Shown here: positions 7,503 to 29,300 of the stretch, piece by piece
Numbering within the stretch: the stretch's first letter is position 1
Layout: every line of letters begins with the position of its first letter
IMG/VR virus record: IMGVR_UViG_3300020470_001313
Location: 86,608-150,607 of that record
DNA: 64,000 bases
Origin: a virus
Reading direction: 5' to 3' (one strand)
The notes under the pieces: generated by a model
Database searches by the model: none
The model's input: only the letters and a program-made list of their open reading frames with translations
Told to the model about the DNA's origin: nothing
Position numbers and translations under genes: made by a program

Positions 7503-7510
7503 TATTTATG
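7503..7510 (-). promoter_or_regulatory. Late promoter-like CATAAATA upstream of gp9-like gene
   Basis: Plus strand tatttatg, overlapping the upstream stop codon. Confidence 0.55.
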
Positions 7511-8360
7511 AAGGTCTCTGTTCTTTAGTACTAGGACCAAAGATATATGGGTATACTGGCTTGTTATCCTCATCTAATGTGAGATAATAAGCAAATGTAC
7601 CACTAGGAAATTCAGGAGTAACTGCGTATCTACCATTATAAACGTCCAAGTCTCCTAAACCGTTAACGTATTCATAATCTTGAATAAAAGTTCCAGCATT
7701 ATATTGACTGTAACTATATGTTCTATTCGCAGGTGGAGTAGTCAATACTCTATATGAACTAGTGAGTCTTTTAGTTCCTTGTGAATTATCAGTTGAAACT
7801 TTATACCCAAATGGTCCATATATGGGATACCCATCAAAACATATACCAACGATCTTTGAATGACCATCAGGATGTCTAAAGAAGTTACCTTCATAGTTAG
7901 AGTTTGAGAAGTATCCATTAGATTGAATTACTCCATTTGCCCAACAGTTAGTGAGAAAACTTCCTGAATGATAATGGTATGATCCATTCTGCTCTGGGTG
8001 CCCCCCACAAGGGTCTACACCGTACGCTGCTTCATTATATACTGCATTCCATTGAAAATTATCAGGTAGAGGATTAGTATCCCCAGGTAGAGGACCACCA
8101 GCCGCAGAGGGGTTGGTAATCAAAACACCATTAAGTGCAATACCTATACCACCAAGACCAGTTGCTTGAGGGTTAGAAGTATTAGTTCCACCTCTATATG
8201 TAATATCAAAACTATAAGTCTGAGCAGAGATATTATTAGGATTATTGGGGAAATTCCCAGAACCTAAAGGATCTCCAGCTAGAGCAGGATCGGGAAGACC
8301 ATTACTTGTTACAGTAAGAGTATTCCCATCAATAGTAGCAGTAGTATTTGAAGCTGGCAT
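7506..8360 (-). CDS. YHYH domain protein
   Basis: 284 aa; IGIALNGV, DPCGGHPEQNGSYHYH, GHSKIVGICFDGYPIYGP, GDLDVYNGR. Confidence 0.85.
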   Translation of the reverse strand: MPASNTTATIDGNTLTVTSNGLPDPALAGDPLGSGNFPNNPNNISAQTYSFDITYRGGTNTSNPQATGLGGIGIALNGVLITNPSAAGGPLPGDTNPLPDNFQWNAVYNEAAYGVDPCGGHPEQNGSYHYHSGSFLTNCWANGVIQSNGYFSNSNYEGNFFRHPDGHSKIVGICFDGYPIYGPFGYKVSTDNSQGTKRLTSSYRVLTTPPANRTYSYSQYNAGTFIQDYEYVNGLGDLDVYNGRYAVTPEFPSGTFAYYLTLDEDNKPVYPYIFGPSTKEQRPS

Positions 8361-8377: not shown

Positions 8378-8385
8378 TATTTATG
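8378..8385 (-). promoter_or_regulatory. Late promoter-like CATAAATA upstream of YHYH gene
   Basis: Plus strand tatttatg, overlapping the gp7-like stop codon. Confidence 0.55.
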
Positions 8386-11300
8386 GTGTACTTGACCATA
8401 TGCTTGTTACAGCGAAGACTCCAAGTGTAGTACCTGTACCCGCTGGAGATGATCCTTGTCCAGGAATGTCTCCACTGTCCACATTAGCAAGATTTTCAGG
8501 TGTTACATTAATAACATCACTATCAACAATCTCTTCTTTATAAAGAGCTTCTTCACCGTATGCACTTAAATCTGGAGCAGTCCAATCATCAGCAACCACT
8601 TGCGTGATAGTAACACCAGGATAATTGTAACCAGAACCAGGGGCGGTTGTATCTACACGAGAAACACCAACCAGTGCCTTAACTGCGCCATCAAAACCAG
8701 ATGCACTGTCAACACGGATAACTGGACGTGCGCTAAATCCAGATCCAGGATTGGTTACCTGAACAGAATCAATTCTATTTTTAACGATAGTAGCATTACC
8801 TTGAGCATCACGACCAAATACAGATCCGATATACTCAAATGTTACTAGTGTGTTAGAAGATTCAATAACAGCAACTTCTCTATCCTCAGTTTCACCTTGG
8901 ATGTCTAGAAGGTCACCTGCCTCAATTGGAGGAACAACCTCAGACTGCGTAACGTCAGCGTCAGAACCAATATACGCGAAACCAACAAATGTAGATCCTA
9001 CACGAGGAGTTTCTTTGAAGACGACACGAGAACCAACAAGTTCAAAACCGATTCCAGGTTGCTGAATAACACCGTTAAGTGATATAATGATGTTGTTGTC
9101 TGCGATAATAGACTCAGTTGCCTGTACACCTTCAGTAAGTGCGATAGAGTAGAATGTACCATCACGCTTGAGGTTGAAGGATGATCTCAATGAGTCAAAC
9201 TCAAATGATATATCATCCAACTGTCTCATCTTACCTACGTAGAAACCAGTGAAGGAAGATCCAATAGTAGGTGCTTCGTTAAACTGTATGATATCAGAGA
9301 ATGCTGTGTATGAACCAGCTGCGCCTGGAGGTTGTAGAATACCATTCACAAAGATCATCATATGACCTTCAGGATCTGGGAAGTATGGAGTACCGTTTTG
9401 CTCAGTTAGTTTGAACTGTGTTTGTGTACCATCAAATCCAACGAACCAGCGAGATGTACGTCCTACGACATCTATTTTCTCACTAGATGCTGCTTTATAT
9501 CCATCATCAGAAATGATAGTATCATTTCCAGTAAATGTTCCAACAACATCGCTTAGATAAACACGATTTGTTAATCCAATTTCATCAATTCTACTTACTG
9601 TACCGTAAGCAGTTGTAGTTGCGTTAACTGTAGTAGATACCTGACCATAAATTATTGGACTTGAAGTTTCACCTAATTGATATTGACCAATATATTGACC
9701 ATTAGCGAATGCGGAAGATCCTATTGGTGACACGTACAAGTAATTATTTGAATCATCCCATCCAGTAACAATACCATATGCACCACCTTCAATTATTGAC
9801 TGGTTGTTATTTGCCTGATAAACATACTGACCAACTGTAAAGTCAAGAGTTGCGTTAGGACCTGTGAGAGTAACACCTAAGCGTGTATATCCAGTAGCAA
9901 CAACCTTATCACCTGTAGCAATATTCGCTGCTATGGAAGGATGCTTAGTAACATCTAAGTAAATTCTAGTAGCATCTGGATAAACAATTGAATTCTCTTC
10001 AAATGAACCTATAACACTTTCAGTATCAAGTGTAAGTTTACCACCTGTATTATCAAGAACAGCACCTTCATTCTTATTGAATGATACGATATCTGCCTTA
10101 GCACCACTACTATAACCCTTGAATGAATATCCAGGTTTCATCTCATTAACAAGATTAATAACTTGGAATCTATCAACGATAGTCTGAATACCAGCGTTAG
10201 TTAAAGTACCAACTTCAAATGTGATATTTGGAGCACCACCATTACCTAATAGTGCGTCAGGAAGTGTTAATACATCACTAACACCATATCCAGTACCACC
10301 ATTAGCAATTGTAATGTTAGCAGCACCTTGATCATCAACAGTTACGTTGAATGTTGCGTTAGAACCATTACCACCTGTAGCAGCTATACCATCGTAAGAA
10401 CCTTGAGTTCTATTTGCATTAGCACCAGCATTTGTTAGATTAGTGATAGATCCAACAAGGTTAGTACCACCTGCGAGAGCAGCACCAGAAGTTTGACCTG
10501 TAATTCCTAAGTATTGTGTGAATGTACCCGCACTGATTACAACATCCATATAACGGAAGTTATCATCAGATGATGTAGCATAAACAACACCTGTTATAGC
10601 AGCGTTACCAGTGATCTGTACAATTTCACCTAAAGCGAAGTCTGCATTACCACTACCTAGAGTAACCTGATCTGCCTTGAAACTAAATCTCTTAAAGATC
10701 TTAGCAATTCTTGCTTCGTTACTTGTAACTTTTTCAATTTCAGCATAACTGTCAGATCCAATACCATAGAAATGATCAGAACCAACTAACTTCTGTCCCA
10801 ATCCAACTGGAATATTTCTAGAACCACCTGCAACATATGTTACTACTGGTAGAGTTACACCAACAAAACCAGTTTGCTGTTCATAGAAACTATCATCTAC
10901 AAGTTGTGACTTATAAAGTCTGATAGTATTCTTGATACGGAACATTACTTCAGGAGTATCATAGTATATGTTCAGTTCTGGTTTATATGCAGGTATTGTT
11001 CCAGAATCAGGAGCAGGATTAGTTAAATTATTATTGAGTTGTTCCTCAACAAAGTCCTCAAATTTATCAAGAATGTAGTTCTTAATATTAAATTCATCAG
11101 AGATGTAGAACTTCTCACCAGCCTCAGACTGATAGATGTCTAGGAATCCCTTATTAAGTTTAGCACCCCAGATAAATGATCCAGAAGTACCATCACCCTG
11201 AGAACCACCACCAGCTAAAGTACCAGTATTATTGAGCATATATTCCTTCATAGTAATAGAAGAAATACCGAATGGAACACGAATTGTGATGAATGGGCGG

Positions 11301-14300
11301 AACCAACCAAATCCATATGGTTTAACACCCCAGAATGTTCCCTTCATATCATTTGAAGGTGAACCATCACCAACAACTACGTTACCGTTAATGAATAGTG
11401 AAGGACCAATCGCACCTGTTACAGCATCCCATGTAAATTCTGCCTGATCTGTAGCACTCCATGAAATGCTATGACGGAACTTGTAATACTCATCCTGCTT
11501 AACAAAGCAACTGAATGTATATTCTTGATAAGATAGTGAAGAACCTTCGTCAAAGTTGTTATTAGTATCATCAAATGTGAGTGTAGCAGAGTCAAATGTA
11601 TCAAATGTTGGTAGATTGAATGTTCTTTCAATTACTTTTGGATCAGTATTAACACCAGGAATATACTTGTCAGCAGTTGAAGTACCGTCTGGTGCAACAC
11701 CTATATCATTAGAAATAGTACCACCACTTACAGTCCAACCACCAGCATCAAAAGTCTCTCTCTGTCCACTTGGCCAGATATTATCTGATTGAGTCTCAGA
11801 TGAGACAGGTGATGTAATTAAACGTATATTCTGTAATGCTGCGGTATTATTGAGGTTTGCAGTGCTTACTGGACCTTCAATGCAACCTTCATCCGCACTA
11901 GTAAATGTATGAGTAAAGTCACCACCAGTTTGTATTGCATTAATGGCAGCTGCTTGTCCAGCAACGAATGTATGTGGATACTGGTCAGCAGAAGCTGCAA
12001 CACCAACATTAATTATTATAGTTCCATCTTGCTTCTTAATACCATTAGGTTTACATGTTACGTAAGTATGTGTTGATGTATCAGGTGAAGCACCAATATT
12101 AATACTAAACGAATCGTTATTAATAATTGTAGGTTCCAACCACTTCTGACTCTTAGGATCAGTTGCTCTTGGATATGCATGAACACTAATCTCATTATCT
12201 AAAGCACACTTAAAGGTGATTGCACCATCATCAAGTTTAATTAAATCACCAGCAGAAATACCATGATTATTAATATTAAGTGTTAATATACCATTATTAG
12301 GATTATATGTAGCATCATCAGGATCATCTACATTATCTGTACCTACTGATTTAATGTTAATTGACTTATTATAATATGGGTCAGTTGTACGTGGGTATGT
12401 TTGATTACCAGCACCCTGAGTACATGTAAATGTCAAACTATTAGGTGCAAGTCTAATGCTAGTACCAGCAAGCAATCTATGACCAGTCATAACTGCTCCA
12501 GGTAGACTGGAAGCATATGTATGTGCGACTGGTACACTAATAGCACCGCCATTTGGATCATTAACATTAACTGTTATAGTTGTAGAACTAGTTGCTGTAA
12601 TAGCAAGTCTATTCTTAGCAGCATAATCTATACCACCTACTGCACGAGAACCAGTTAATCTAGGATATGCAGATTGAGTTTGAGTTGATTGACCAACATC
12701 AATAGTAACAGTTGTTGCGGTTACAGCATCAATTGGTAAAGTTTGACCTGAAGCAGGGTCAGAAGAACGAGGATAAGGGTGCTGTGTAGCATGGTTATCA
12801 GCGTCACAAGTAAAGATAACTGCTTGATCAGCAATCTCAACAGTATCACTAGTAGTATAACTATGAGATCCAATCTCAACTACTAGAAGTCCAGTTGCAG
12901 GATCATATGTTGTACCAGCAGCAGCAGTCTTTTGACTTAAAGTTCCACCAACATCAAATGTTAATCCATTAGTTGTACCAGTAACAAATGTATGAGTACC
13001 TGTTGCAGCAGCACAAGTGAAGGTAATAGATTCTGGTTTAAGACCAATAGTATCATCAGTAGTCAATCCATGATTATTACCAACAGTTAACTCCATATCA
13101 CCCGAAGTTGGGTTGTATGTTGCGTTACTTACATCAAGTGATCCAACTGTCAATTCCATATCACCAGTAATATGGTTGTAATCAGCAGCAGTAGGGGTAT
13201 AAGTTCCAGCAGTTGATTTACCAACATCAACAGTAACAGTGTTAGTAGTTACTGCCTCAACAGCAATATCTTTCTTATAGAATGGGTCAGTAGGTCTTGG
13301 ATATGAATGGTAACTACTATCATCATCCATTGCACAAGTAAATGTCAATGAATTAGGTTTGATTTGAATTACATCATTCTGTTTCTGGAGACAATCACTA
13401 AGTGCTGTCTGGAAAGTATGAGCACTAGTGTTAGAAGATATTCCTACATTAACCTCAAAAGTATTTGTAGTTACTGCGGCAATAGTCAACCATCTACCAC
13501 TAGCAGGATCAGATGATCTTGGATAAGTCTTAGTTACACTATTATCTAAAGCACACTTGAATGTTAATGAATTATCATCTATTTTAATCTTATCACCATT
13601 CTTAAATCCATGACCACTTAAAGTAATCACCATTGCACCTGTAGCAGGTGTAAAGGCAGCACCAGTTGGTGTATGCTTAGTATATGGTGTCATTCCATGA
13701 CCAGGAATGGTTAATACCAACTTACCTGTTGAAGGTGTATATGATACAGCAGTTGGAGTATAAGGAGTACCAATTAAATCAGATGTAGAAAGTAAATCAT
13801 AAATTGCATCATCTTTAACCTGTTTTAGGAAAGCAGTTTCTTCTGCTTCTTCCCAAACTCCACCCCAGTCAGCGATGGTAGAAGATCTAATCTCTTCTTC
13901 AAAGTACTCATCACCAACAAGTATTTGTAATGCTGCTTCACGACCTTGCTTACCAGCAGGTACAAGGATCTCAATTATAGTTTCAATTAAAGTATCAATA
14001 GCAGATTGAACATTAGCACAATCTTGAGCAGTATAATCAGTATTATAACCATCATCCTGAGAATCAGTTATAGTTAAATCTGTAACAGCAGGATTGATGT
14101 TTTGATCACTAAATCTACCAACATAATGTTCTGGAGTTAATTGACCAGCACCAGTACTCTGAAGTAAGTTATTAACTGCTTTCTTACAAAGGAATCCTGT
14201 TCTCTGAATTGCTTCAGCAGTTTGAGCAAGTTGATCTTCAACCTGTACAATATTATTAGATGTGTCAAGGAACTTCTTAGCAGCCTCTACAGAACTGTAG

Positions 14301-17300
14301 TTACCACCAACAAGAAGGTCAGAAGCAATAGAGTCAACGATAAGAGTCATATCTCTGATACACTTATTCTTACCGTCAGTATCACCACCTGGGTAGTCAA
14401 ATACTCTTATAGTGTTGCTACCAGCATCAATATAACTGAACTTCTCTTGCATCAGTCCAACTGCTTCAATAGCAATGTATTCTTTGTTAAAGATCATCAA
14501 ATCGGCAGCATCAGCAAATCTGTCACCAGTTGGTGAAAGAGTACTATTCATCAAATTAACAAGAGTGTCAATAGATGCCTTGACGTTTGCACATCCACCA
14601 CCATCAACAGTAATTCCAGCAGGAGGAATAATAACATTAGTAGAGTAATTAGCAACTAGAGTTCCGTCAATTGCTGCCTTAGCATAGAATGCTAGACGCT
14701 CATGAGCATATAGTGACTGTAGAAGTTGTAGTCTAATATGAAGTATCTCACCGTCAGAACCAAGATAGTATCTAAAGGCAGTAACAGTATTTGCATTACC
14801 ACCAAACTCTAAGTCTTCTGCAATAGCATCAAGAATTAAACCAAGGTCAGTCTTACAACGTATTGTACCAAGACCAGAAGCACCACCTGCGTTTCTTGGC
14901 ATATCCTGTACAAGATCAGGATAACGAGCAAGCATATCACCAGCAGTTTCATCAACAATAACAGTTGCATTAGCACGAATTAAATTCGCAGCATCCTTAT
15001 ATCTGTTGAGTGCATCTGGATTTAATTGATTACTTACAAATAAATCATCATCTGGGAATTCTTTATCACAAGTCCATTCGCTAGTAACATAAGCATCAAC
15101 TACACCACCACCAGTTTCACTGGTAGGAGCAGTTCTAGTTACAGTACCAAGATGGTCAGATGGTGTTAATGAATTTGCCTTATCAATAGTGTCAGATATA
15201 ATACCTGTATAAGTTGTAATTGCAGAAGCAACATCCTGACAATAAGGATTAGCAGTATCTCTAGTGATTGTAGTATCAATTACCTGTTCATATCCATGAT
15301 CTCCAGTTATTGAGATTGCGTCTCCACGCATAACATTGATCATGAAATCACGAACCTTAGCAATTGCCCATACAGTCTCACCCTCTTCACCAGAAATATG
15401 GTTTATAGTAATATTATTAGTGTCTGAACGATCAACATAGTATAGAGCAGTATCCCAAGACTTACTATTTCCTTCATTACGTAAGTCATAGCATATTGCC
15501 TTAACCCATTCTTTAGCATCTCTAACACACTTAGAGAATGATGGATGAGTTCTTTGAATAAAGTTAACCGAACTTGGATATTCAAGAGTTCTATTAGCAC
15601 CAGGATCAGATAAAGTATCTGTTACAATCTTCATCAAAGCATCAAGACGTGCATTTGCTTCAGGATATCCACCATAAACGAATGGAATATTTGAATTAGT
15701 TTGCTGAATTTCACCGTGAGAAGTAATTGCATTATCTTCAGAACTTACAAATGTATGTGCATAACCACCACCAGTCTTAACAGCACCAGCAGTAGCACTC
15801 TGGAATGTATGAGTGTAGTTACCACCAGCAATTACAGCACCAGCAGTAGCACCAATAAATGTATGGGCAGTAGGTGAACCTACAGAAGTAATTGGTTTTA
15901 CATCAACTGTAATAGTTCCAGTTTGTGTCTCAAGACCATTAGATGTAGCACTTATAAAGATATGCTCAAAATCTCCAATAGTAGTTTGACCAACCTGAAC
16001 ATCAAATGTATTGTCAGTTATATTACTGATTGCCATCCACTTATTACTAATAGGATCATTTCCTCTAGGATAAGTATGAAGTGTCTGATGTAAATCCTTA
16101 TTACATGTAAATGTTAATGAATTATCTAATATTCTAACCTTATCTTGATCAGTAAATCCATGATTAGCAATAGTTAGTTTTAATATACCAGTAGAAGCAG
16201 TATATGTAGCACCTGTTACTGTATGCTGATTCTTACCAACAGCAGTAATAGGAAGTGCTCTCTGCCAAGCATAGTCAGCACCAGCAGGTGTACCACCAAC
16301 ATAACCAGAACCAGTTCCACGAGGATAAGCAACCTGTACAGGTGAACCACCATAAGTACACTGGAATGTTAATGAACTATCTGCTAGTTTAATACTTTGT
16401 GCTTCAATTAAATCATGAGCACCAATATTAAGTACTAAATCACCAGAAGTGAAGTTATAAGTTGCACCAGCAACATCATATAGAACTTGAGGTGATGCAC
16501 CAACATTAACTGTAATTTCACCAGTCTGCTTCTTAAGAGCATTACCTACACAACTGTTAAAGGTATGAATAGAAGTATCTGGAGACTTACCAATTTGTAT
16601 ATCAAATGTATGTGTTGTTAAGTTCTCAATTGGAATCCACTGAGATGCAGAAGGATCTTTTGGTCTTGGATATGAATGATATGTTGTATCATTATCTAAC
16701 TTACAAGTAAACTTCAATGCATCATTATCAAGTTTGACTTGATCTCCAGCAACCTTAATACCATTAGCAGCAGCACTCTGGAATGTATGAGTGTAATTAC
16801 CACCAGTTCTAACAACAGAAGTTAAAATACTGTTATTAACAGCATTAACGAAGGTATGTGTATAATTACCACCACTTTGAACAGCATTAGAGGAAGTACC
16901 ACCAACCCATGTGTGTGCTGATACGTTAGAAGAAATACCAACGTTAATAGTAATGGTTGTACGACTTACATCATCAACATAGATTGTTCTATCATAGTAT
17001 GGGTCTCTCTGAATTGAAATACCATTATTAGTAGCAGACTCAAATATATGAGTATCTGGGTTTGTAGAAGGTGCAAGATCTAGAACTTGAACTTTAAAGG
17101 TAGTTGAAGTTACATCAAAGATTGGTAACCATCTACCACTAGCATAATCACTTCCACGAGGATATGAGTGGTTAGTAGCATTACCATCCTTAGCACACTT
17201 GAATGTTAATGAATTATCTGCAATCTTAATCTTCTCACCATACTTGTAACCATGAAGAGGTACAGTCAATGTCAAATGTCCTGTAGCAGGATCATATGAT

Positions 17301-20300
17301 GCAGTATTAACTGTAGAAGTATCAATTGTATTTCTTGGATAGGTGTGAGTTGTTACACCATCTGGTTCTTGTGCAGTAGCATCTTGCTGACACTTGAATG
17401 ATAATGAGTTAGCAGCAATCTTAATACCTTGTCCTTTCTTAATTCCGTGGTTATGACCAACAGTAAGAACCATCTCACCTGTATTTGGTGTATAGACTGC
17501 ATTAGTTACATCATGGTTAACTATAGGTGTCTGACCAACAGGAACTGTAATTGTATTAGCATCTACAACAGTTACATCTAACCACTTGTTAGCAACTGGA
17601 TCTGTTGAACGAGGATATGAATGAACAGTTTCATGATGATCCATGTCACATGTAAACTGAAGTGCATCCTCAGCAATCTTAATTCTACCAGTGGACTCAA
17701 GACCATGACCATTAATAGTCATCTGAAGAGTACCATTACCAGGATTGTAAGTTGCAGCACTAGGTGTTAATCCTACAGCAGGAACAAACTTGTGAGCAAA
17801 CTGATTACCAGAAGATCCTACATTTACATTAATAGTAATAGTAGTTGCAGTAACTCCCTTAATATTCAATGCTGCATTATAAGCAGGATCAGTTGTTCTT
17901 GGATACTTATGAGTAGTAGCATAACCATCATTAGAACAAGTGAATACTAAAGATTCTTTTGCTAGTTTAATAGCAGTTCCAACCTTAAGATCGTGGTTAC
18001 CAATCTCAAGTACCAAATCACCAGTTAGATGATCATAATCTGCATGAGCAACATGGAAGTCCTTAAGAGGTGACTTACCAACATTAACTTTGAATACTGT
18101 AGTACTGTCAACATCAACATCTAACCACTCACCGAAGGTAGGATCACTCTTACGTGGATAGGTCTTATTACCAGAACCCATTGCACAACTGAATGTAAAT
18201 GCACCTTCTTCAAATCTTACACGAGCACCATTAGCAAGACCATGAACAGCAGTTGTAGTAACTGACAATTCACCAGTTGCAGGATCATATGTTGTACCAG
18301 AAGCACCAGTTAGATTAGTTGGTCCACTCCAACCATGATTCTGTATATCAAGAGTTAGAACACCTGTTTCAGGATTGTATCTAGTACCAGCAGTACCGAT
18401 ACCAACATTCATTGTAATATCGTTTCCAGACTTAGTAATTGGAATTACTCTACTCCAAGTAGCATCTGCTGTACCAGTTCCTAATGTAGTAAAGATTGGG
18501 TCAGTTGCTCTTGGATAAGCATGGTTTGTAGCATTATTGTCAAGGTCACAAGTCATTGTTAGTGAACTGACCTTCATTTGAACTTCATCACTAGCAGCAA
18601 GTGAATCTGTACCATCAGCACCAACAGTAAGAACTAAGTTACCAGTTTCAGCAGTATAAACTGCACCAGTTACAGTGTAAGTATTACCAGTAGCACTAGC
18701 ATCTCTAATACCACCACTAAGAGCAGATACAAATGCATGGTTACCAGCAACTACTGTATGCTGAGTTTGACCAACAGCAGTAATAGGAATGGTAGTATTA
18801 TGAACTGGATCAGTTGCACGAGGATAAGTCTTGTTAGTATTCTGACTATCCATGTTACACTGGAATGTCAAAGAATCAGTATCAATCTTAATACCATTAC
18901 CAACATTCATGTTGTGCTTACCAATATTAAGCACTAAGTTACCATCAGCAGGAGTATAGGTAGCAGCAGATACATCATGTCCAACTTCAGGAGAAGAACC
19001 AACATTAAATGTAATATTACCATCTTGTCCTAAGAGTCCATGTGGAGCATGGGACTTGAATACATGATTATAAGCACCACCATTGTAAACAACTGCTCTT
19101 GTTAAACAATTGAATACAGCAGAAACGAATGTATGAACTGTATTATTAGAAGTAGGACCAACATTAATAGCAAATGTATCTGTAGTGACCTTACCAATCT
19201 TCATCCACTTACCGCTAAATGGATCAGTCTCTCTTGGATAAGAATGCTGTGTCTTATTATCGTCAGTAGCACATGTGAATACTAAACCAGCATCAGCAAC
19301 CTTAATATATTCACCACTTGCAAATGTATGATCAGCAAGAGTTAGAGTCATCCAACCTGTAGCAGGATCATAATCAGCATCAGTTGGAGTATACTGGTTG
19401 TTAGCATTAACAAATTGATGAGTACTTGTATTGGTTGGAGTAGTACCCTGTAATGCATTAACCTGAATAGTACCACTCTGATACTGAATACCGTTAGCAA
19501 CAGCACTGTCAAATGAGTGAGTTGTAGTGTTAGAAGAAACTCCTACATTACACTTAAAGGTATCAGCATCTACTACCGTTACTGTAATCCACTTACCACT
19601 TATAGGGTCAGTAGATCTTGGATATGCATGAGTACCACCACCAGCAAGACATGTGAATACTATTGAACTGTCTACTATTTTAATTCTTTGACCAGAAACA
19701 AATCCATGAGCAGCAGATGTAATTGTTAATAAACCTGTAGTAGGTTCGTAAGTTGCACCAGTTGCTGTCTTAGAATTAGTTCCAATATCAGTAATCTTAA
19801 GGAACTTATTATATGCAGGATCAGTTGTTCTTGGATATGACTTATTAGTGATGTAATTATCACTATTATGGTTACAAACAAAGTTTAGAGAATTGTTTGC
19901 AATCTTAACATACTCACCAACAGAGAAGTCATGATCTCCAATAGTAAGTTCTAGAACTCCAGATGCAGGTGTATAAGATGCACCACTAACACTGAATCCT
20001 TCAACATTTTCACCAGTACCAGTTTCAATACAGTTATTATCAGCACGAACAAATGTATGTGCAGATGTGTTAGAGGATACTCCAACATTAACAGTAATCT
20101 TACTATCTCTTCTTATAATACCATTTGTAGCAACAGCAGTACAGTTATGATTTGAGGTATCTGAAGACTTACCTATCTGAACATCAAAACTATTTGTAGC
20201 AACAGCATTAATACGTAACCACTGACCACTAGCAGGATCAGTTGGACGTGGATATAGATGATTACTACCGTAACTATCAGTATTACACTGGAAGGTTAAG

Positions 20301-23300
20301 GACTCATCAACAATCTTAACGTATTCACCGACAGTGAAATTATGACCTGTTTGACCAATTGTTAGGACACCTGTTGTAGGTTCATAGTCGGTATCTGACT
20401 GAGCAGCAGTATATGGTGTACCTTCATACTTAATAGGAATTGAAGTATCATATACTTTGTCACGTTTCTGTTTAATACCATTAGCAGTACCAGAAACGAA
20501 TGTATGAGTGTAGTTACCACCAGTCTCTACAGCACCAGCAGAAGCAGAAACGAATCTATGCTCTGTCTGATCTGTTGAAGGAGCAGATGGAAGAACCTGC
20601 ATACTAATGGTCATGTCCTTACCAGTGACACATCCAGCAGTACAAGATACAAATGTATGAGCAGTTGTGTTAGTAGAAGGAACAGCAGGTAGAATCTGAA
20701 CAGTTACAGTATCAGGTGTTCTATTAAATACACTTAACCACTTACCACTTGCTTCATCAGTTGCTCTTGGATAAGAATGAACTGTGTCATGGTTATCATG
20801 ATCACATGTAAAGCTAAGAGCATTGTTTGCAATCTTGATCTTATCACCATTCTGTATAGGATGATCCTTAATAGTTAAGGTCATATGACCTGTAGTAGGA
20901 TTATAATCAGCAAATGTAGGTGTTAAAACAGCATCGCCAACAGCAGTGATAGCAATGGAAGTGTTGTATGTAACACTGTCATTACCATTACTTCTAGGAT
21001 AAGTCTTAGTTGTTGAGTGATTATCGTTGTTATAATCACAAGTAAAGGTTAATGAATCTTGAGCAAGTTTAATTGCATCACCAACAACCATTCCATGAGT
21101 ACCAATGGTAAGTTCCATGATACCTGTAGTTGGGTTGTAAGAAGCATCAGTTGGTGTATAATTTACAGCAGGAGACTTACCTACATTAACAGTAAATCTT
21201 GTAGTACTAGGAATACTCTCAACTTGTAACCACTTATCATATGTTGGGTCAGTCTGACGTGGATATGCCTTATTAGAACTACCACCATCCATTGTGCAAT
21301 TAAATGTGATTGCACCTTCATCAAACTTGATCCAATCACCTACTTGCATACCATGTGTAGCAGCAGTAGTAACATCTAAAACACCAGTTAAAGGAGCATA
21401 GGTTGAACCAGATGCTGCCTGATGAGTGTCAATAGCTGTACGAGGATAAGTATGCTCAGTAGCATTACTATCTAAAGCACAAGTCCAAACTAATGAATTA
21501 GGTTGAATCTTAATTGTCTGACCCGCAGCAAGACTATGTGTACCAATATCAAGTACCATATCTCCTGTAGTAGGATCATATGTACCATCAGTAGGAGTGA
21601 ATGTGTAAGATAGACTCTTACCTACATTAACTTCAAAACTGTCTGGATTTGAATTAGAAATCTTTAACCAACGACCATTCCAAGGATCAGTTGTTCTTGG
21701 ATAATTATGATCAGTATGATGATCATCTTGATCACATGTGAATACTAATGACTTACCAAGAATCTGAACACTATTACCATCTACAAATTTATGTCCAGGA
21801 ACCCATAACTGAAGTATTCCAGTCTCAGGATCATAAGTTGCATTATCTATAGTATGAGATGTAATACCAACTTCTTTAACTGGATTCTTACGTAAATATG
21901 CTTGATCTTCAAGACGAGGATATGTGTGCTCAGACTTATTACCGTCCATTGCACAAGTAAACTTCAATGAGTTAGCAGTAACACATGCACTACCATTAGA
22001 ACGAGTAGAGTTAACTATAAAGTTGTGTGATTTACCAATATCTACTGTAAGATCACCAGATACAGGTTCATAAGTTGCATCAGATGCCTTGAATCCATTA
22101 TATTGAAGAACTGGAGAGTTGTTAATTACTCTCTTGGTAATGTCTCTGGCTTCGTTAAAGACACGAATTGAGAAACTTTCCTTGCCTTTAAGGTGGTCAA
22201 GTTTAGCATTATTGACATATAACTTAGCAGCATCATATGTTTTATTGTTGTAACCATATGTTAGGTTGTAAGAAATATTTCTGATAATATCTTTTACGTC
22301 ATCCTTACAATCTATAGGACCAGTTCCTGGAGGTGGTTCTGGTGAAATACGATCATATGCTTCAGCAGCAATGAAATCTAAGTTACTTTGGATGACATTA
22401 TAGAATTCCTTACCGTAAGTAATAGGTACTTCAGTATCAGGATGAGGAATGTGTAATTTAACAAACTCTTTGTCAGTCTGATAGATTGCTTCATTAGCAA
22501 TCAATTCAACGTTGTTTAATATCTCAGTTGAAGCATCAAAGAATCTGAAGGTAGTATCACCAGTTAAGAACTGATCACCTTCGTTCCATGTAGGTACTCC
22601 AGACCAATCTTGGAAAGTAGTAGATAGGTTAGCACCATCAAAGTGTACTAGGAGAAGAGTGTTAGCATCTCCTTGATGCATATACGTTGCAACAGTAAAG
22701 TTAGTAGTATAACGCTTATTATTAGATACCCTTAATTCATCAACATATCCTTGGAACTGGTTGGCAGCAGCATGATCTGCACCAATCTTAATTGGTTTTG
22801 TAGTACCATAATCAGTAGCATTAGTCCAAGTAGAACCTACCTGAGTTCCATCTAAGAACATTCTATGATTGTTTCCGTCTCTAGAAACTGCTACATGATG
22901 CCATGTATTTTGAGTTACAGTACCACCAGTAATTACGTCAGCACCACTAACATGGAATTCTAATCCAGTACCATCAAGTCTTATACAAGGTGATGCTTCT
23001 GAAGCTTGAGTTCTAAAGTCAATTAAATGCTGAGTACCAGTAACACTAGCAGCATAGAACCAACACTCAACTGTCCATTCACCATTTCCAAAACCAAATT
23101 CAGTTGAAGTTGGAACTGAAACATAAGCAGAACCATTCAAATATAGAGATGCACTACCAAATTTCTTTTGTAGAGTTGCATTAATAGCACCACTTTGAGC
23201 AACAGGAACGTGTAAATCTGTACTACGACGTGCTACCTTACCAAGATAAAGATATTTACGTGCATAGTTAGTACCAATTACTTGAGCAGTACCATTCTCA

Positions 23301-26300
23301 CTACGGATAATATCACCAGATAGGATTAAACCATCTGGAGTAACTTTAGGTTCATCATATGCAAGTTTGTATAGACGAACTGTTTCTCCATCAATTAAAT
23401 CACCTGAGATATTAGAGTAGTTAACAATATGGTTACGAATATCTTCATCAACTGTAAATGTACCAGCAGCATTATTATATTCTAGAATTAGGTTACTTAC
23501 AACCTCAGAATTAGGGAACTTACTGTTAAATTCTGCATTAACATCATTGATATCAGTTAGTTGTAACTGAGTCTGTGAAATATTATCAAGAACAACGTTT
23601 TGGAAGTTAATATTAGTAATTCTGTTGAACACTAATCCTTGGAAAGTAGATCCTTCAGAAATAATAACTTGGTTGTTTGGTTCATTAGTTACTGGGTCTC
23701 TATATGCAGAAATACCAACAACTTCAGCAACAATAGCACTCTGCTGACCTATGATTATATCACCAATGACAATATCAAATAAACCAGCAGTAGACTGATA
23801 AGTACCAGCAGTCTTACTTAATAATACTGTATCTCCAATCTCAATAGTTGTTCCAAAGACATTACTATCAGTTTGGTGACCTACAACAGTAGTTCCATCA
23901 ACACCTCTGTTAGCAGTAACAGTGTTACCAATAATACTTGATACTTCAAATCTCTCAGAATCAATCTGATAAACTCCACCAGCATTAGCAACAATAGTAA
24001 CAGTAGCATCTTGGTTACCACCACCACTAATTGTGACTACATCTCCAAGAGAATATCCTGTGCCACGTTCCTTAATCTTAACAGAAGTTATAACTCCACT
24101 ACCATCTGCTTCAACTTCAACAGTCATTCCAGTACCAGATCCACCAGTTGTTGTTACACCATCAATATTATCAATATATCCAGTACCAGCAGTAGTTAAA
24201 GTTACCTTAGCAAGTGCATATCCAGAAGCAACATCAAATGTGTTACCAGATGCAGAAAGACCAGCAGGAACAGTAGTTAAAACCTGACCATTATCACCTT
24301 CTAGGTTAACTCTTTCAATCTTAGCATTGTCCCCTCTAAGGTTCTCAATGTCTTCTTTAAATTGGAATAGGTTAGTATTTGTAAGTGTAGTAATACTATC
24401 AACATTTGCAGTAAATCCTGTAGCACTAGAAGTGATTGCTTCACCTTCATATGTAAGAGTTGTAGAAGGATCATCAGTCTGGAAAGGTTGACCAGCAGTA
24501 GTCTTATAGTAGAAATCAACACTTGTTAAACCAGTAGCAACAACAATTGCCTCATAATCAGTTACAATACCTCTAATAGTACCACCGATAAGTGGGAAAA
24601 TACCAGAAATAGTACTTAAATTCGCTCTATGGATAGTCTTAAACTCTAATGTAGCATTTGAATACTGAACATTAGCAGGAGGTTGAGGTGGTGATGAGAA
24701 TACAATATTAGATCCCTGAACAGTAAATGCATCTCCAGGAGACTGTACAATACCATTCAAACTAATTAAGAGTTGATTAGCAGATGCAATAACAGGTTCT
24801 GTTACAACATTACCATCTTGGTTAATATTTTGAACAGTTAATGGGAATGAGATCTTCTCACCATCAAATTGATCTGAAATATCATTAATCTTCTGAACAG
24901 TAGAAGTTAGAATCTGCTCGGAAGAAGTCAAATTCTTCTGTCTGAAACGAACCTCAGTGTTATCAAATTCTGTATAAACTGGTTCAACTAAAGTAAAGTT
25001 CTGTAGATTTGGAACAATTGCAGATTCTGCTAAGTTAACTGACTTAGTAAGTTCAAATGCAGTCTCTTTATTCTCAATAGTTGATTTTTCAACTAATCCC
25101 AATTCACCAAATACCTTAAATCCAGCAGGGTGAACGTTAGTAATAAGGATGTCTCTCCAGTCAGATATTGAAACAGGAGCCTTAACACTATAGGAGAAGT
25201 CCTGATAGAAGTAAGAGTCTTGAATCTTCTGAATAATTTCACTAGGTTTACCTACATCATCAACGAATCTACCTGGAGTTGTTGTTATAGCACCAACTTC
25301 CAAAACACCCTTAGCAATACTAAAGTTGTCAATTGTACCAGATGCCTTAGAAATAGTACCAGTAACAATCTGATTCTTACTGAATGTACCAGTATAATCA
25401 ACAATCTTAAGGATTCTAGGTCCAATTTGCCAACCATCATTCTCTGAAACGTATCCAGTTGCAGTTGCAGTTTCTAATGAATCACCTTGATATAGTAATT
25501 CTCCAGCAAGGAAACGACCAGTAACAACGTTTGCAGTAGCAGCACCACCGAATGAATCGGTTAAAACAACCTGTCTACCAGTACCAGCATTAGTATATGA
25601 GATATAATCACCAATTGCAGCATTATCTTTAGTAATTGCTAAACGTAATTGATCATTTTCTAATGAATTAGTAATACCAGAAATAGCATAATATGTTGTA
25701 TTAGCATTCAATCTACCGAAAGATGAGATTGGTAGTTCTGGATCATCTCCACTACCATCATCATTAGCAGTTAATGTTACAGCAGAACCATTTACAATAC
25801 CATGTGGGAACGAGAATTGTAGTAAATTAAGGTCAAGGTTAACAACATAGTTGAAGGATGACTTCAAAGTTACATCAGGTTGAGAGGAGTAACCTGCACC
25901 TGGATCCTTAACTTCAATAGCATCAATACGTCCGTTCTTAATAGATGCCTCAGCAGTTGCACCAGTACCTCCACCACCAGCAATAATAACAGCAGGAGGT
26001 GTAGCATATCCAGAACCTGGGTCAGTAACGGTAATACTATCCAGTATGTTTGTACTAGTTAACTGAACGTTGACTGGGAATGTGATTTCAGGACGTAATG
26101 TATAGTCATGAGTATAATCAAAACCGAAGTTGTTGTTCTTAAGTTTCTTAATCTTACCGATCTTATCTGCTTTAACAAATACAGATGCACCAGATCCATT
26201 AGGAGGAATAACAACATCTAATTCTGCACCAGAACCAGTAAGTCCAGCACCTAAAATACCAGTGATAGACTCAATATCAATAGTTGCAGTAGTATAATTC

Positions 26301-29300
26301 TTACCTGGATCAGTAACGATTACCTCAGAAATCTGTCCTGGAATGTTGTTACCATCCTCATCCTCACCATCAGCAACAGTAATATTAACTTTACCACCTT
26401 CACCGTCACCAGCAATAGGTACTCCAGTGTATTCTCCTACAGCATATTCAGTACCTGGTTCAGTAATTGCAACTCTTTCAATCTTACGATTGGAAACAAT
26501 ATTTGAAATGACTGGTAACTTCTTGTAGAATCCACCACCATTTACTAGACGAATATCTCCAATTGGTCCAACTGCTTTCTCTGAGAATGTTGTATATTTA
26601 ACTAAACTTGCTTGAGCAGTACCTTCTGGTTCTGATGTTAATGGGAATTTAAAGATTGTATCACCAGTAGTAATAGTACCACCACTAGTAGAATAAATTA
26701 CAAAATTACCGTGATATGGAGTAGTTACAACGTCCATATAGGTACTATCATCAACTGGAGATGTATCACCAGTTCTTGATGGGTCAAAGTAATATGATAT
26801 ATTTGTTACATCATTATTAATAGAAATCTGAACATAAGGTTCTGGTTGGTTTCCAACCTGATAACCTGGAGTTCCAACACGAGTAATTGAGTTAAATGAA
26901 TATTCTAACTTAAATAGATTATCCTTAGAGAAGGACATGAAATATCCCTGTAAGGATTCATCACCAAGCATAAACTTATACTTGTGCTGATAGTACATCT
27001 TAAGTACAGGATGCTTGGCATATATGTCTATTAACGAAGCAGCAACAGGTAAACCAACAGCAGTTCCTCTTAATCCAACAATAAATGATCTAGTACTTAA
27101 AACATTAGTAACATTGAATGATCCATTAAATTCATCAAGATCATTACCAGAAATTAACAGATTATCTCCAACTGAATGACGATGTGCTTCAGCAGTAGTG
27201 AAGTAAATCTTATCAGTGTTTGCAGCATCATCAAGAACTATAATCTTCTCAAGATTAGTAATTAGAGTAATCTGAGTTACAGCAGTTAATTGATTAGGTG
27301 AAGCACCAATTGTTAACTCAGTCTTATCTGCATTCCAACTAACAGTATCAGAAGTTGGAGTAATAACACTTCCAACAATATATGGTGATCCAGCAGGTGC
27401 AGTAGCATCAATTCTTACAGTATAATCATTAATGTTATAATCTTTAAATCTAGCAGATAATCCACCAGGAATGTTGAATATGAATGTACCTTGTCCAGCA
27501 GTAGCATCAAAATCTTGGTTAGCAAAGGTTTGTGATGGAATTTCGTTAACTTCAGTTCCAGTAGATACAATTTCTCCAGTATCTTCCCAACCTACCCAAT
27601 CAGTAGCATTACCGTAACTTGCAACATATACACCAGTATCATCAGTCTCTACAATAGTAGCAGTTCCTATAACCTGTCCACCAGCATTCTTTTGTTGTAA
27701 TTGAGATCCAACATTAAAGGTTGCAGGTTGATTGAATGTAAATTTAAGAATGTTATCTGCTTGTATAGCATCAACAGTCTGAATATAGAACTTACCCCAA
27801 GTTTCTGGAGTTGCTTTAACTTTTCTACCACCAATAGCAGGTATAGTCGCAGTTCTAGTAGACCATACATCTGTAGTTGATGATATAGTTAAAGAATCAA
27901 GTACAAGAGTTGAGTTTACATCATTATAATCTAGAACCTGTAAACCTTCGCCAGCAAGTGTTAATGATCCTGAATTAATTACTTGATCAGTAACATTACT
28001 GTAAGTATATGCAGCAGTATTGAATTGCCACTTAGTATTAGTTCCAGTAAAGTCTCCTTGACGAGATGTATCAACATTCTTATCAGTCTTAAGTATTAAA
28101 CCACAATCAACAGCGTAAGTATATTTCTGAAGATAAGTGTTGAAATCAGCAGTTGTAGATGGAACAATAACCTGAATTACACGGTCAGTAATCTTAAATC
28201 CATCAACGTTAAATGATCCAGCAGTGGTAACAGCCACACCTGTTGCAGCACCAGTCCAGTTGGGTGAGTTACCCATGTAAATCTTAGCAGTAGTTGCAAT
28301 ATTACTGTTTCCTGGAAGAGTTCCTGTACCTACCTGAATTCCATTAGCATATAAGGTATAAACATTACCTGCTTTAGTTAATGCAACATGAACATAACCA
28401 ACGTTGTTAATTAAAACATTATCAACACTAGAAATAGCACCAGCAGTTCTTTGAGTAGTAGCAGAAGCAAACATCTCAAGTCTCTTATTACTACGGTTTA
28501 ACATGACCGTAATACCTGGTTCATTACCATGTCCTACACCAAATAGGATATGATGAGTAGATCCAACAGCACCTAATCTAGTATCTTGTTGATCATTAGT
28601 TTCATCAACTGAGTAGAATCCTTCTATTGTCCAGTCACCATTAATATCAAAGGAATCTCCAAATCCCCAAATACCTGTATTATTACCTGGTTCTAATTCT
28701 AGGTGGGTGTCTGACCATGCAGATCCATCCCAAGCATCAATCATTAAACCACCAGTACTACCCTTACCATTTGGAGCACCAGAAGTAATATTAGAACCTT
28801 TATAATAATCTCCAATGAGTTGTCTATTAGTAATGTTACCTGTTGTATCTACAGGTTCAGTTTCACTAGTTTGTTCAAAATTAAAGAGTCCAATGACTTC
28901 ATTACGGAATGCTTGTCCTACAACAACTGGATCACCAGAAGCATCTGAAATGAATGCGTTAATTTCAAATCCAGTGATATTTCTAGTAAACTTAATTACA
29001 TTGGTAGAAATCAGTGTTCCATCATACTTAATCTTACTTACTTCACTTTGTTTACGATATGAATCATATTCAGCAGTAGATTCGTTAACTTCATAGTTAC
29101 ATGCAACATTATACTGTCCAAATACGTCAATATTACCACCAATTGCTTTTAAGTTTCTCCAAGTGGTTCCTCCAGTAGGAGTCCAACGCTTACCCCAAAC
29201 AACATCATCATCAACAGTTACTTTAGTAACAATTATTGAATTTGAGTTAGATCCAGAGTATGCAGTACCAGAAACATAGAAATCTCCAAATTCATCAATA

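What the first reader, a model, noticed from the sequence alone, without database searches (positions are those of the whole stretch)
15719..22093. Recursive Russian-doll protein architecture: 20 modules nested as one balanced tree
Seen: the ~105-aa module has ordered parts A (A.Y.P.TG...H...FTC..D...YPR), B (TDP...I), C (T..VNVG.S) and D (HTFVSA...I). Copies are not simple tandem repeats. New copies open inside earlier ones (after YPR, after B, after C, inside A, inside D), and the missing parts reappear later in last-in-first-out order, e.g. the stacked closers HTWVGG...GGNYTHTFVN...GGNYTHTFQS. Manual parse, numbered by YPR order: 1[2[3[4[5[6]]][7]][8[9][10]]][11[18[12][13[14[15[16[17]]]]]][19[20]]]. 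Every bracket closes and the maximum depth is 8. The tree sits in a loop of helical domain H2, which is itself inserted in H1. Inference: a single chain folds into a branched, dendritic appendage rather than a linear fibre, grown by repeated in-frame domain-into-domain insertion. I know of no description of nesting this deep.
Basis: partly seen in the sequence, partly recalled or inferred. Interest (0 to 1): 0.9.

Follow-up and report, generated by a model that had tools for sequence, protein, structure and literature searches.

The report
Nested beta-barrel tree in cyanophage gp7
A 9,242-residue baseplate protein of a marine cyanophage holds 26 copies of one small beta-barrel domain inserted into each other's loops like Russian dolls, about seven levels deep, which is deeper than the deepest case I found described.

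Summary
Window 15719-22093 (minus strand) is residues 4673-6797 of one 9,242-aa ORF at the gp7 position of a T4-like cyanomyovirus. It holds 20 copies of a ~105-aa module, most split by other copies. A profile of intact copies finds pieces with complementary profile coordinates, such as 6-27 with 28-106. Iterative excision rebuilds 18 of 20 modules in six rounds, and the last two close by hand. Six more modules form a second tree at 11876-13762. Giant homologues collapse the same way, up to nine rounds, and permuting the closing pieces degrades this in every trial.

AlphaFold2 on residues 4893-5218 gave pLDDT 86 and pTM 0.74. Single 80-residue barrels (E1 FCCH, phage endosialidase barrel; Z 8.0-8.6) superpose on model residues 1..325, so the first strand and the distant closing strand share one barrel. 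The deeper subtree was modelled less well: one more closure was recovered, and the split inside part A has only weak support.

Recursive nesting is known: cyanobacterial RNA polymerase Si3 has six levels. This is a larger, deeper case in another fold, apparently undescribed. Function is inferred.

The parts
8381..36109 (-). Giant ORF, 9,242 aa, gp7-like baseplate wedge protein (P0001)
   Evidence: It is the only long ORF here. It lies between gp6 (36129-38102, 75% identical to S-SSM4 gp6) and YHYH and gp9/10-like genes. Pfam Baseplate_wedge PF23786 hits at 29.4 bits (cut-off 27), and YHYH and Laminin_G_3 also hit. Homologues include P-SSM2 'baseplate wedge initiator'.
15719..22093 (-). Tree 1: 20 nested modules (aa 4673-6797); also the full span of module m1 (pieces aa 4673-4754, 5694-5710, 6780-6797)
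19031..21847 (-). m2: aa 4755-4835 (A,B,C) + 5673-5693 (D); hosts m3, m8 and m10 in its C|D loop
   Evidence: The rejoined module scores 102.7 bits over profile positions 3-101.
20021..21604 (-). m3: aa 4836-4896 (A) + 5217-5235 (B) + 5336-5363 (C,D); hosts m4 and m7
   Evidence: Collapsed in round 4, 94.5 bits.
20462..21421 (-). m4: aa 4897-4982 (A,B,C) + 5196-5216 (D); hosts m5
   Evidence: Collapsed in round 3. AF2 model pLDDT 86.4. FCCH and endosialidase barrels align over model range 1..325 with about 80 residues.
20525..21163 (-). m5: aa 4983-5061 (A,B) + 5166-5195 (C,D); hosts m6
   Evidence: Collapsed in round 2. Only two weak structural rows span 88/92..303/304.
20615..20926 (-). m6: uninterrupted leaf, aa 5062-5165
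   Evidence: 126.7 bits.
20105..20404 (-). m7: leaf, aa 5236-5335
19400..19996 (-). m8: aa 5372-5445 + 5545-5570; hosts m9 (leaf, aa 5446-5544, nt 19478-19774)
19094..19399 (-). m10: leaf, aa 5571-5672; sibling of m8 inside m2
15773..18979 (-). m11: aa 5711-5781 (A,B) + 6526-6548 (C) + 6761-6779 (D). In the alternative reading it is a leaf, aa 5711-5804.
   Evidence: The two parses score nearly the same: 177 against 173 bits summed.
18383..18754 (-). m12: probably circularly permuted, with D first (aa 5786-5804) and then A,B,C (aa 5805-5909)
   Evidence: by analogy with V5
16523..18391 (-). m18: split inside A. Hairpin aa 5907-5935, then aa 6453-6529, 517 residues later; hosts m13.
   Evidence: Profile coordinates 6-27 and 28-106. 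Rejoined score 97 bits. Not resolved in AF2 job 2. The two pieces tested as separate chains scored 0.53 against a best control of 0.01, which is weak support.
16754..18304 (-). m13: aa 5936-6017 + 6430-6452; hosts m14 (leaf, aa 6018-6113, nt 17771-18058) and m15
   Evidence: The coupling score prefers this closer. AF2 placed the closer near m14 at low pLDDT.
16823..17770 (-). m15: aa 6114-6197 + 6411-6429; hosts m16
   Evidence: Barrels align over model 2 range 207..530/533 with 74-86 residues.
16880..17518 (-). m16: aa 6198-6263 (A) + 6368-6410 (B,C,D); hosts m17 (leaf, aa 6264-6367, nt 17009-17320)
15830..16477 (-). m19: aa 6545-6626 + 6731-6760; hosts m20 (leaf, aa 6627-6730, nt 15920-16231)
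11876..13762 (-). Tree 2: six modules (aa 7450-8078), V1[V2][V3[V4[V5 permuted]][V6]]. Insertion points at profile positions 28, 22, 47, 74 and 85.
   Evidence: Complementary coordinates 3-28/27-87/84-103, 2-23/21-76/74-104 and 3-47/47-103. Rejoined scores 87-114 bits; V5 un-permuted scores 105.6.
22214..22309 (-). Helical repeat motif (C-x-x-D ... D-L ... G) of unit 1, just upstream of tree 1. Three further units lie at nt 15434-15529, 14762-14857 and 14267-14362.
   Evidence: Regex and BLAST self-match, E 1.6e-7. The helix after tree 1 (nt 15590-15661) resembles the fourth helix of the other units by eye only, so tree 1 appears to sit in a loop of unit 1.

Best explanation
The stretch encodes a recursively nested array of one small beta-barrel domain inside the gp7-like baseplate wedge protein of a T4-like cyanophage.

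The module is about 105 aa. It consists of a strand-hairpin A, ...FTC...H.YPR, strand B, strand C (VNVG) and strand D (HTF). Its first and last strands lie side by side, so the chain enters and leaves at one spot.

Five surface loops accept a whole further module: profile positions about 22, 28, 58, 74 and 85. The host resumes after the guest has finished. Repeating this gives 20 modules in one tree 7-8 levels deep, plus a second tree of 6 modules.

Because the ends of every subtree stay together, the whole array can sit in a loop of a helical unit of gp7 without disturbing it.

Shown:
- the sequence grammar, its conservation and its variability across homologues;
- predicted closure for m4 and m15.

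Inferred:
- closure of the deepest hosts;
- a conserved Cys/His site shared between opening and closing pieces;
- the function. I take it to be a branched, multivalent surface-binding appendage at the baseplate rim, possibly glycan-binding like the endosialidase barrel.
For: Gene identity:
- One 9,242-aa ORF sits at the gp7 position.

Sequence grammar:
- Profile hits are complementary partial pieces.
- Iterative excision rebuilds 18 of 20 modules in six rounds. The last two close with hand-added weak pieces.
- 120 giant homologues share the module. Among the 60 tabulated, collapse runs up to nine rounds, with no opener left over in many.
- The real order beat 25 of 25 permutations in each of six proteins.
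- 552 split modules break at five discrete profile positions.

Conserved residues:
- Cys43 is kept in 1317 of 1318 rebuilt modules and His92 in 1310 of 1318. In split modules these two lie on different pieces.

Covariation test:
- Couplings learnt on 767 leaf modules favour last-in-first-out pairing of stacked closers in 66 of 79 cases.
- After clustering at 60% identity the count is 33 of 36 (p = 1e-7).
- m13, m14 and m15 each prefer their own closer among the three local ones, and m4's own closer is the best of all seven tried.

Structure prediction, job 1 (residues 4893-5218, 19 collinear rows):
- pLDDT 86.4, pTM 0.74.
- E1 FCCH domains (Z 8.0-8.6, rmsd 2.5-2.9, 78-81 aligned) and endosialidase barrels (Z 7.1-8.1, rmsd 2.0-2.3) align to model range 1..325.
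- The opener alone (1..86) reaches only Z 3.4.

Structure prediction, job 2:
- It recovers the closure of m15 (range 207..533).

Halves of m18 tested as two chains (weak support):
- Score 0.53, best control 0.01.
- That mark was reached by 58 of 80 solved complexes and 2 of 110 mismatched pairs. At 0.60 or under it was reached by only 7 of the 80 and by both mismatches.
- The runs agree in at least 75% of contacts, and partner pLDDT is at least 56.

Independent support for the assembly:
- Two metagenome contigs, 94% identical, show the same topology.

A size series exists:
- S-RIM2 has 1 module, S-SSM4 has 4, P-SSM2 has 9, this window has 26, and the maximum seen is 30.
Against: - Job 2 was only moderately confident (pLDDT 73, pTM 0.34). 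It gave no row joining the two pieces of m18 or of m13. It placed the strand that the parse assigns to m13 next to m14, at pLDDT 43-65, while m14's own last strand fell below pLDDT 50.
- Closure of m5 rests on two weak rows.
- No coordinates were available to me. Strand pairing is therefore inferred from aligned ranges, not read from contacts.
- The alignment used for job 1 was built from collinear nests, so the model is not independent of the parse.
- The covariation signal could reflect shared ancestry of a module's pieces rather than contact.
- m11/m12 has two almost equally scoring parses.
- m2's own closer is not its best-scoring partner.
- Nothing here bears directly on function or on metal binding.
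Confidence: 0.85

Rival explanations
1. The array is a linear or domain-swapped chain. The truncated copies are completed by strands from the adjacent module or from another gp7 subunit, so the array is a string or zipper rather than a nest.
For: In AF2 job 2 the closer at model residues about 540-553 sits with m14 rather than with m13. Stacked closers are adjacent in sequence and could form a sheet of their own.
Against: - In the confident model, the last strand aligns in one barrel with the first strand 320 residues away.
- Last-in-first-out pairing wins in 33 of 36 independent comparisons.
- For m13 and m14 specifically, the coupling score contradicts the low-confidence AF2 placement.
- Breakpoints complement each other to within a few profile positions.
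Confidence: 0.08
2. This is a mosaic of decayed repeats. Partial copies are remnants of tandem duplications of sub-segments, the short H-T-F pieces are an independent strand repeat, and the balance of counts has no structural meaning.
For: Sub-segment tandem duplication can give A-B-C A-B-C D D patterns. Modules are old (35-50% identity), and parent and child are no more alike than random pairs. One surplus C-like strand exists under one parse of m12.
Against: - Counts balance in this protein and in many homologues, with no leftovers.
- Order matters.
- Splits inside the hairpin (6-27 / 28-106; 2-23 / 21-76; 3-47 / 47-103) rejoin into full-scoring modules.
- The Cys and the His on separate pieces are both near-invariant.
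- AF2 gives closers pLDDT of about 90.
Confidence: 0.05
3. This is an assembly or gene-calling artefact. Repeats were mis-joined, creating an apparent nested order.
For: Repeat-rich regions are prone to misassembly.
Against: - The reading frame is open for 27.7 kb.
- Two independent metagenome contigs carry the same order at 94% identity.
- DNA copies are only 60-78% alike, too diverged to confuse an assembler.
- Isolate genomes hold the same kind of nests.
Confidence: 0.02

Closest known systems
Si3 insertion of cyanobacterial RNA polymerase beta' (hybrid-motif / SBHM domains)
   Same: One small beta domain family is inserted recursively into itself, with branching nodes. It is described as eight domains in a six-level recursive architecture and given as the example of the survey's most complex (six-level) nesting among 2.7 million classified domains (PMC13114784; structure in PMC10895346). 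The whole array sits in a loop of an essential host element.
   Different: The fold differs: here it is FCCH / endosialidase-barrel-like, not a hybrid motif. This case has 20 + 6 modules against 8-12, and depth 7-8 against 6, with nine collapse rounds in a homologue. It has insertion points inside the first hairpin and circularly permuted guests. The topology differs among the homologues compared, and the host is a virion protein rather than an enzyme.
FCCH domain of ubiquitin-activating enzyme E1 (Pfam PF16190)
   Same: It is the best structural match: Z 8.0-8.6, rmsd 2.5-2.9 A, 78-81 residues. PF16190 is among the precomputed Pfam hits of several homologues and of one ESM Atlas cluster. From my own knowledge, FCCH is itself a domain inserted in a host domain with adjacent termini.
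   Different: Sequence identity is 14-18%. No Pfam hit was found on the nine leaf modules scanned singly or on the three chunks of the ORF, and there is no profile hit to any PDB sequence. Z near 8 is borderline by the tool's own note. There is no E1 context.
Beta-barrel domain of phage endosialidases (K1F endoNF, phi92; Pfam PF12195)
   Same: Z 7.1-8.1 with the lowest rmsd (2.0-2.3 A) and 17-18% identity. One leaf module hits PF12195 at E 0.008. It is a phage host-recognition protein. From my own knowledge, this barrel is inserted in the propeller and binds sialic acid.
   Different: In endosialidases it is a single copy in a trimeric enzyme. There is no nesting and no conserved Cys/His pattern, and membership by sequence is not established.
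T4 gp7 baseplate wedge protein and the 'gp7-tail fibre fusions' noted for P-SSM2 and P-SSM4
   Same: The gene order is the same (gp25, gp6, gp7-like, gp9/10-like). The N-terminal wedge domain is present. The very large genes (>15,000 nt) were already noted and read as baseplate-anchored fibre subunits (PMC1079782).
   Different: T4 gp7 is 1,032 aa (from my own knowledge) and lacks this module. The earlier paper describes size and fusion, not the module or its nesting.

Membership tests
T4-type gp7 baseplate wedge protein | Gene lies after gp25 and gp6 and before the gp8/9/10-like genes | tested here: met
   gp25 Pfam hit at 38102-38521. gp6 at 36129-38102 is 75% identical to the S-SSM4 baseplate wedge subunit. 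A gp9/10-like N-terminus lies at 6301-7485.
T4-type gp7 baseplate wedge protein | Wedge domain recognisable by profile | tested here: met
   PF23786 Baseplate_wedge, E 7.1e-7, 29.4 bits against a cut-off of 27, but only residues 692-738 match. A homologue is named 'baseplate wedge initiator', P-SSM2.
Recursive nested domain insertion (Si3-type architecture) | Discontinuous domains whose pieces complement each other around complete guest domains, closing last-in-first-out | tested here: met
   Complementary profile coordinates, six-round collapse, permutation control and coupling test.
Recursive nested domain insertion (Si3-type architecture) | Pieces come together in three dimensions | tested here: inconclusive
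   Predicted for m4 (range 1..325, Z up to 8.6) and m15 (207..533). Weak for m5. Not recovered for m13 and m18. These are predictions only, and no coordinates were seen.
Recursive nested domain insertion (Si3-type architecture) | Same domain family as Si3 (hybrid motif) | tested here: inconclusive
   No hybrid-motif chain appears among the 50 rows shown in either search. The matches are FCCH, endosialidase, FNR-type and EF-Tu-type barrels. Absence from a list does not exclude the family.
E1_FCCH / endosialidase beta-barrel fold | Structural superposition over most of the domain, well above background | tested here: inconclusive
   Z 8.0-8.6 (FCCH) and 7.1-8.1 (endosialidase), 78-83 residues, rmsd 2.0-2.9. 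The tool states that Z 7-8 is a typical best value for models with no true match.
E1_FCCH / endosialidase beta-barrel fold | Pfam profile match at the gathering score | tested here: not met
   No Pfam family was found on the module region. Of nine leaf modules, one hits PF12195 at E 0.008 and none hits PF16190.
Simple tandem repeat array | Head-to-tail copies at a regular period | tested here: not met
   Start-to-start spacings of the DNA copies range from 183 to 2550 nt. Ten of the 20 tree-1 modules were rebuilt from two or more separated pieces.

The most novel reading that the evidence does not exclude
The nesting is a generative, fast-evolving grammar for host recognition. Each barrel would be a lectin-like binding unit with a Cys/His metal site completed only when the host module closes. 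Recursive insertion would build a dendritic, multivalent adhesin at the baseplate rim: 26 barrels per chain, and six chains per baseplate if the copy number is as in T4. Its branch topology would be reshuffled between phage lineages as a means of host-range change. If so, these proteins would be the deepest and most variable natural example of recursive domain insertion. They would also be a natural model for how far a fold tolerates being interrupted.
Probability: 0.3. Interest if true: 0.85.

Novelty: new variant of a known kind. Interest (0 to 1): 0.72.

Why it matters
Recursive self-insertion of a domain has been regarded as a rarity. One flagship case is known: six levels in cyanobacterial RNA polymerase.

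Here a family of abundant marine phage structural proteins shows it on a much larger scale:
- up to 30 modules per chain in homologues;
- seven to nine levels;
- five distinct insertion loops;
- circularly permuted guests;
- a series running from one module to dozens in related phages.

That gives a natural data set for three questions. How does a fold tolerate interruption? How does such a chain fold when the last strand of the outermost domain is made about 2,100 residues after its first? How do such architectures grow?

For phage biology, it re-describes the largest gene of many cyanomyoviruses. These genes have been annotated only as 'structural protein' or 'gp7-fibre fusion'. The new description is a branched array of barrels related in shape to a glycan-binding phage domain, which is a testable lead for host recognition.

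Tried and rejected
- The search for related loci with the alignment of nine leaf modules failed because no stretch was conserved enough.
- The look-up of encoding contigs refuses proteins over 5,000 aa. Subtrees of the giant homologues could therefore not be added to the alignment for the second fold.
- The homologues compared have different tree topologies, so no deep collinear alignment exists for the m18 subtree. Job 2 had only three rows over m13, m14 and m18.
- Two alignments of the whole second tree (A4, A5) misplaced many rows on paralogous modules. I did not fold it.
- A wider alignment for job 2 (A3) misplaced fragments and was replaced by A6.
- A profile search of PDB sequences found nothing meaningful: best hit iota-carbonic anhydrase, E 0.0015, 41 residues.
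- Pfam has no model for the module.
- Parent-child identity (0.36) is not above the all-pairs mean (0.37). This gives no sign that guests are copies of their own hosts.
- HMM scores could not decide between m11 as a short leaf and m12 as a permuted guest.
- Literature searches found no paper on the module or its nesting in cyanophage gp7. This is absence in the held library only.
- The claim that helical domain H2 is itself inserted in H1 was not tested, because no folds were left.

Full report
WHAT IS THERE

The finding lies inside one ORF, 8381..36109 on the minus strand, 9,242 aa. The window is a T4-like cyanomyovirus. The gene upstream is gp6, 75% identical to S-SSM4, and gp25 lies before it. 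Downstream are a YHYH protein and a gp9/10-like gene. The ORF carries a Baseplate_wedge Pfam hit, YHYH and two Laminin_G_3 domains. Homologues of 5,000-8,000 aa include P-SSM2 'baseplate wedge initiator'. Sullivan et al. 2005 noted these very large genes (>15,000 nt) as gp7 homologues fused to putative fibre parts (PMC1079782).

Residue n maps to window base 36109-3(n-1). The finding is residues 4673-6797.

THE MODULE AND THE GRAMMAR

Nine uninterrupted copies align over about 105 residues. Invariant positions are G16, H25, F42, C44, Y55-P56-R57, D60 and H93. A 107-position profile was built from 474 uninterrupted copies in 121 proteins. It was then used to tokenise the ORF.

Most hits are partial, and the partial hits complement each other in profile coordinates across intervening copies:
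- 3-85 ... 88-106 (m4)
- 2-74 ... 74-103 (m5)
- 2-58 ... 58-102 (m16)
- 6-27 ... 28-106 (m18, pieces 517 residues apart)

This rebuilds 18 of 20 modules in six rounds. The other two, m1 and m2, fail only because three short pieces score too weakly to be called. Joined by hand, they score 64.5 and 102.7 bits over the whole profile.

My tree is 1[2[3[4[5[6]]][7]][8[9]][10]][11[12p][18[13[14][15[16[17]]]]][19[20]]], where 12p starts with its last strand. An alternative parse treats m11 as a short leaf and m12 as the host of m18 and m19. It scores almost the same (173 against 177 bits).

Depth is 7, or 8 if the permuted module is counted as the host of m18. Positions rule out both.

A SECOND TREE

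Residues 7450-8078 (nt 11876-13762) hold six more modules. Their complementary pieces are 3-28/27-87/84-103, 2-23/21-76/74-104 and 3-47/47-103. One guest, V5, has its last strand in front. Un-permuted it scores 105.6 bits, and no other module lacks that strand. This agrees with earlier notes of the scan.

IS IT MORE THAN CHANCE?

- Permuting the closing pieces among their positions in six proteins never reached the real number of rebuilt modules (0 of 25 trials each).
- Of the 60 giant homologues tabulated, many collapse with no opener left, in up to nine rounds (P0013).
- Over 271 proteins, 777 uninterrupted and 552 split modules were rebuilt. The breakpoints fall at five places only: profile positions about 22, 28, 58, 73-74 and 81-87. 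This is what surface loops of one fold would give.
- Cys43 is present in 1317 of 1318 distinct rebuilt modules and His92 in 1310. In split modules these two residues lie on different pieces, sometimes hundreds of residues apart.

DO THE PIECES BELONG TOGETHER?

I learnt pair log-odds between the last strand and the rest of the module from 767 uninterrupted modules. I then asked, for stacked closers of the same type, whether last-in-first-out or swapped assignment scores better. Last-in-first-out wins in 66 of 79 pairs. After clustering at 60% identity it wins in 33 of 36 (p = 1e-7). Among the three closers nearby, m13, m14 and m15 each prefer the closer that the parse gives them, and m4's own closer is the best of all seven tried. 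m2 is ambiguous. This signal may come from shared ancestry of a module's pieces as well as from contact. Either way it supports nesting over sub-segment duplication.

STRUCTURE PREDICTION

Job 1 folded residues 4893-5218, that is m4[m5[m6]]. It used 19 rows of collinear three-module nests from other contigs. The result was pLDDT 86.4 and pTM 0.74, with closers near pLDDT 90.

I had no coordinates, so I used the aligned ranges from the structural searches. Single compact barrels of about 80 residues superpose on the model with first and last aligned residues 1 and about 325:
- E1 FCCH: Z 8.0-8.6, rmsd 2.5-2.9.
- Endosialidase barrel of phi92 and K1F: Z 7.1-8.1, rmsd 2.0-2.3.

The opener alone (1..86) gives only Z 3.4. 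So in the model the outermost module is completed by the strand made 320 residues later. For m5 only two weak rows span 88/92..303/304.

Job 2 folded residues 5903-6532, the m18 subtree. It had few rows over m13, m14 and m18, because the homologues compared have different topologies. The result was pLDDT 73 and pTM 0.34.
- It recovers the leaf m17 and the closure of m15 (207..533).
- It gives no row for m13 or m18.
- It puts the strand assigned to m13 next to m14 at low confidence, against the coupling score.

The two pieces of m18 were also tested as separate chains. The score was 0.53 against a best control of 0.01, graded 'weak support'. That mark was reached by 58 of 80 solved complexes and 2 of 110 mismatches. 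At 0.60 or under it was reached by only 7 of the 80 and by both mismatches. The runs agree in at least 75% of contacts, and partner pLDDT is at least 56.

WHAT FOLD, AND WHERE ELSE?

There is no Pfam model and no PDB sequence relative.

By shape, the module is a small barrel like E1 FCCH and the endosialidase barrel. From my own knowledge, both are themselves inserted domains with adjacent termini, and the endosialidase barrel binds sialic acid. PF16190 and PF12195 appear among the precomputed hits of some homologues. PF16190 also marks one Atlas cluster.

A profile search of 1.84 billion representatives finds only 746 proteins at E 0.001 or better. Among 50,697 phage records, 318 match, all of them cyanophages or marine viruses.

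Module number forms a series: 1 in S-RIM2, 4 in S-SSM4, 9 in P-SSM2, 26 here and up to 30. One 4,764-aa protein repeats a four-deep nest six times.

SURROUNDINGS

Four helical units with a C-x-x-D ... D-L ... G motif flank the trees. The helix right after tree 1 resembles, by my reading of the printed sequence, the fourth helix of the other units. Whether one helical unit is inserted in another was not tested.

HOW IT LIKELY WORKS

The termini of the barrel are adjacent. This is inferred from three things: the circular permutants, the fact that whole modules sit in loops, and the range evidence. Any loop that tolerates a guest can therefore host a complete subtree, and the ends of the whole array stay together. 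That is what an insertion in a loop of a baseplate protein needs.

The product would be a branched cluster of barrels. If the protein is present at six copies per baseplate as T4 gp7 is (from my own knowledge), there would be 156 barrels in all.

A role in surface or glycan binding is a lead from fold likeness and gene context, not a result. The near-invariant Cys and His residues on separate pieces suggest a shared site, perhaps for a metal. This is untested.

NOVELTY

Recursive insertion is known. A 2026 survey of 2.7 million domains gives cyanobacterial RNA polymerase Si3 as its example of the most complex, six-level nesting: eight domains in a six-level recursive insertion, with branching nodes (PMC13114784). 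The present family is a different fold in a virion protein, with two to three times as many modules. It is deeper, has insertion points inside the first hairpin and permuted guests, and its topology differs among the lineages compared. I found no description of it. I rate it a new variant of a known kind.

Noticed in passing
window 11876-13762 (-), residues 7450-8078: A second, separate tree of six modules in the same ORF. Its insertion points are at profile positions 22, 28 and 47, and one guest (V5) is circularly permuted.
   Followed up: yes
window 14267-15661 and 22214-22309 (-): Four helical units share a C-x-x-D...D-L...G motif, with a later C-A-N-V-x-x-x-I-D-T-L-type helix. Tree 1 seems to sit between the third and fourth helix of unit 1. 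Some homologues carry weak PF00502 (phycobilisome protein) hits in this kind of region.
   Followed up: partly
residues 24, 43, 52 and 92 of the module profile, all 26 modules: The pattern is His-Cys-His/Lys-His. Cys is kept in 1317 of 1318 rebuilt modules and the last His in 1310. His52 alternates with Lys (825 against 343). This may be a metal or other shared site that spans the opening and closing pieces.
   Followed up: partly
L004 (P0122, 4,764 aa, 137-kb metagenome contig): This protein has no gp7 Pfam domain. It repeats the same four-deep nest, W[X[Y[Z]]], six times, separated by about 600 aa of other sequence. Whole subtrees therefore also duplicate as units.
   Followed up: partly
L006 and L007 (P0126, P0124): These module-rich proteins of 3,800-4,400 aa are followed by a gene with a phage tail Collar domain (PF07484) rather than by gp8/9. 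The module may also occur in fibre-type proteins.
   Followed up: no
window 7506-8360, 2860-6297 and residues 1410-1588 of the giant ORF: The YHYH domain (PF14240) occurs three times in neighbouring baseplate-region genes, including inside the giant protein.
   Followed up: no
residues 6098-6113 and 6430-6452 (window 17771-17818 and 16754-16822): In AF2 job 2 the last strand of leaf m14 was left unplaced (pLDDT under 50), and the closer assigned to m13 was placed beside m14. The covariation score says the opposite. This is unresolved.
   Followed up: partly
modules m4 and m13 (window 20462-21421 and 16754-18304): These two host modules are 60% identical, by far the closest pair. The others are 35-50% identical. 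This hints at a more recent duplication of a host together with its position in the tree.
   Followed up: no
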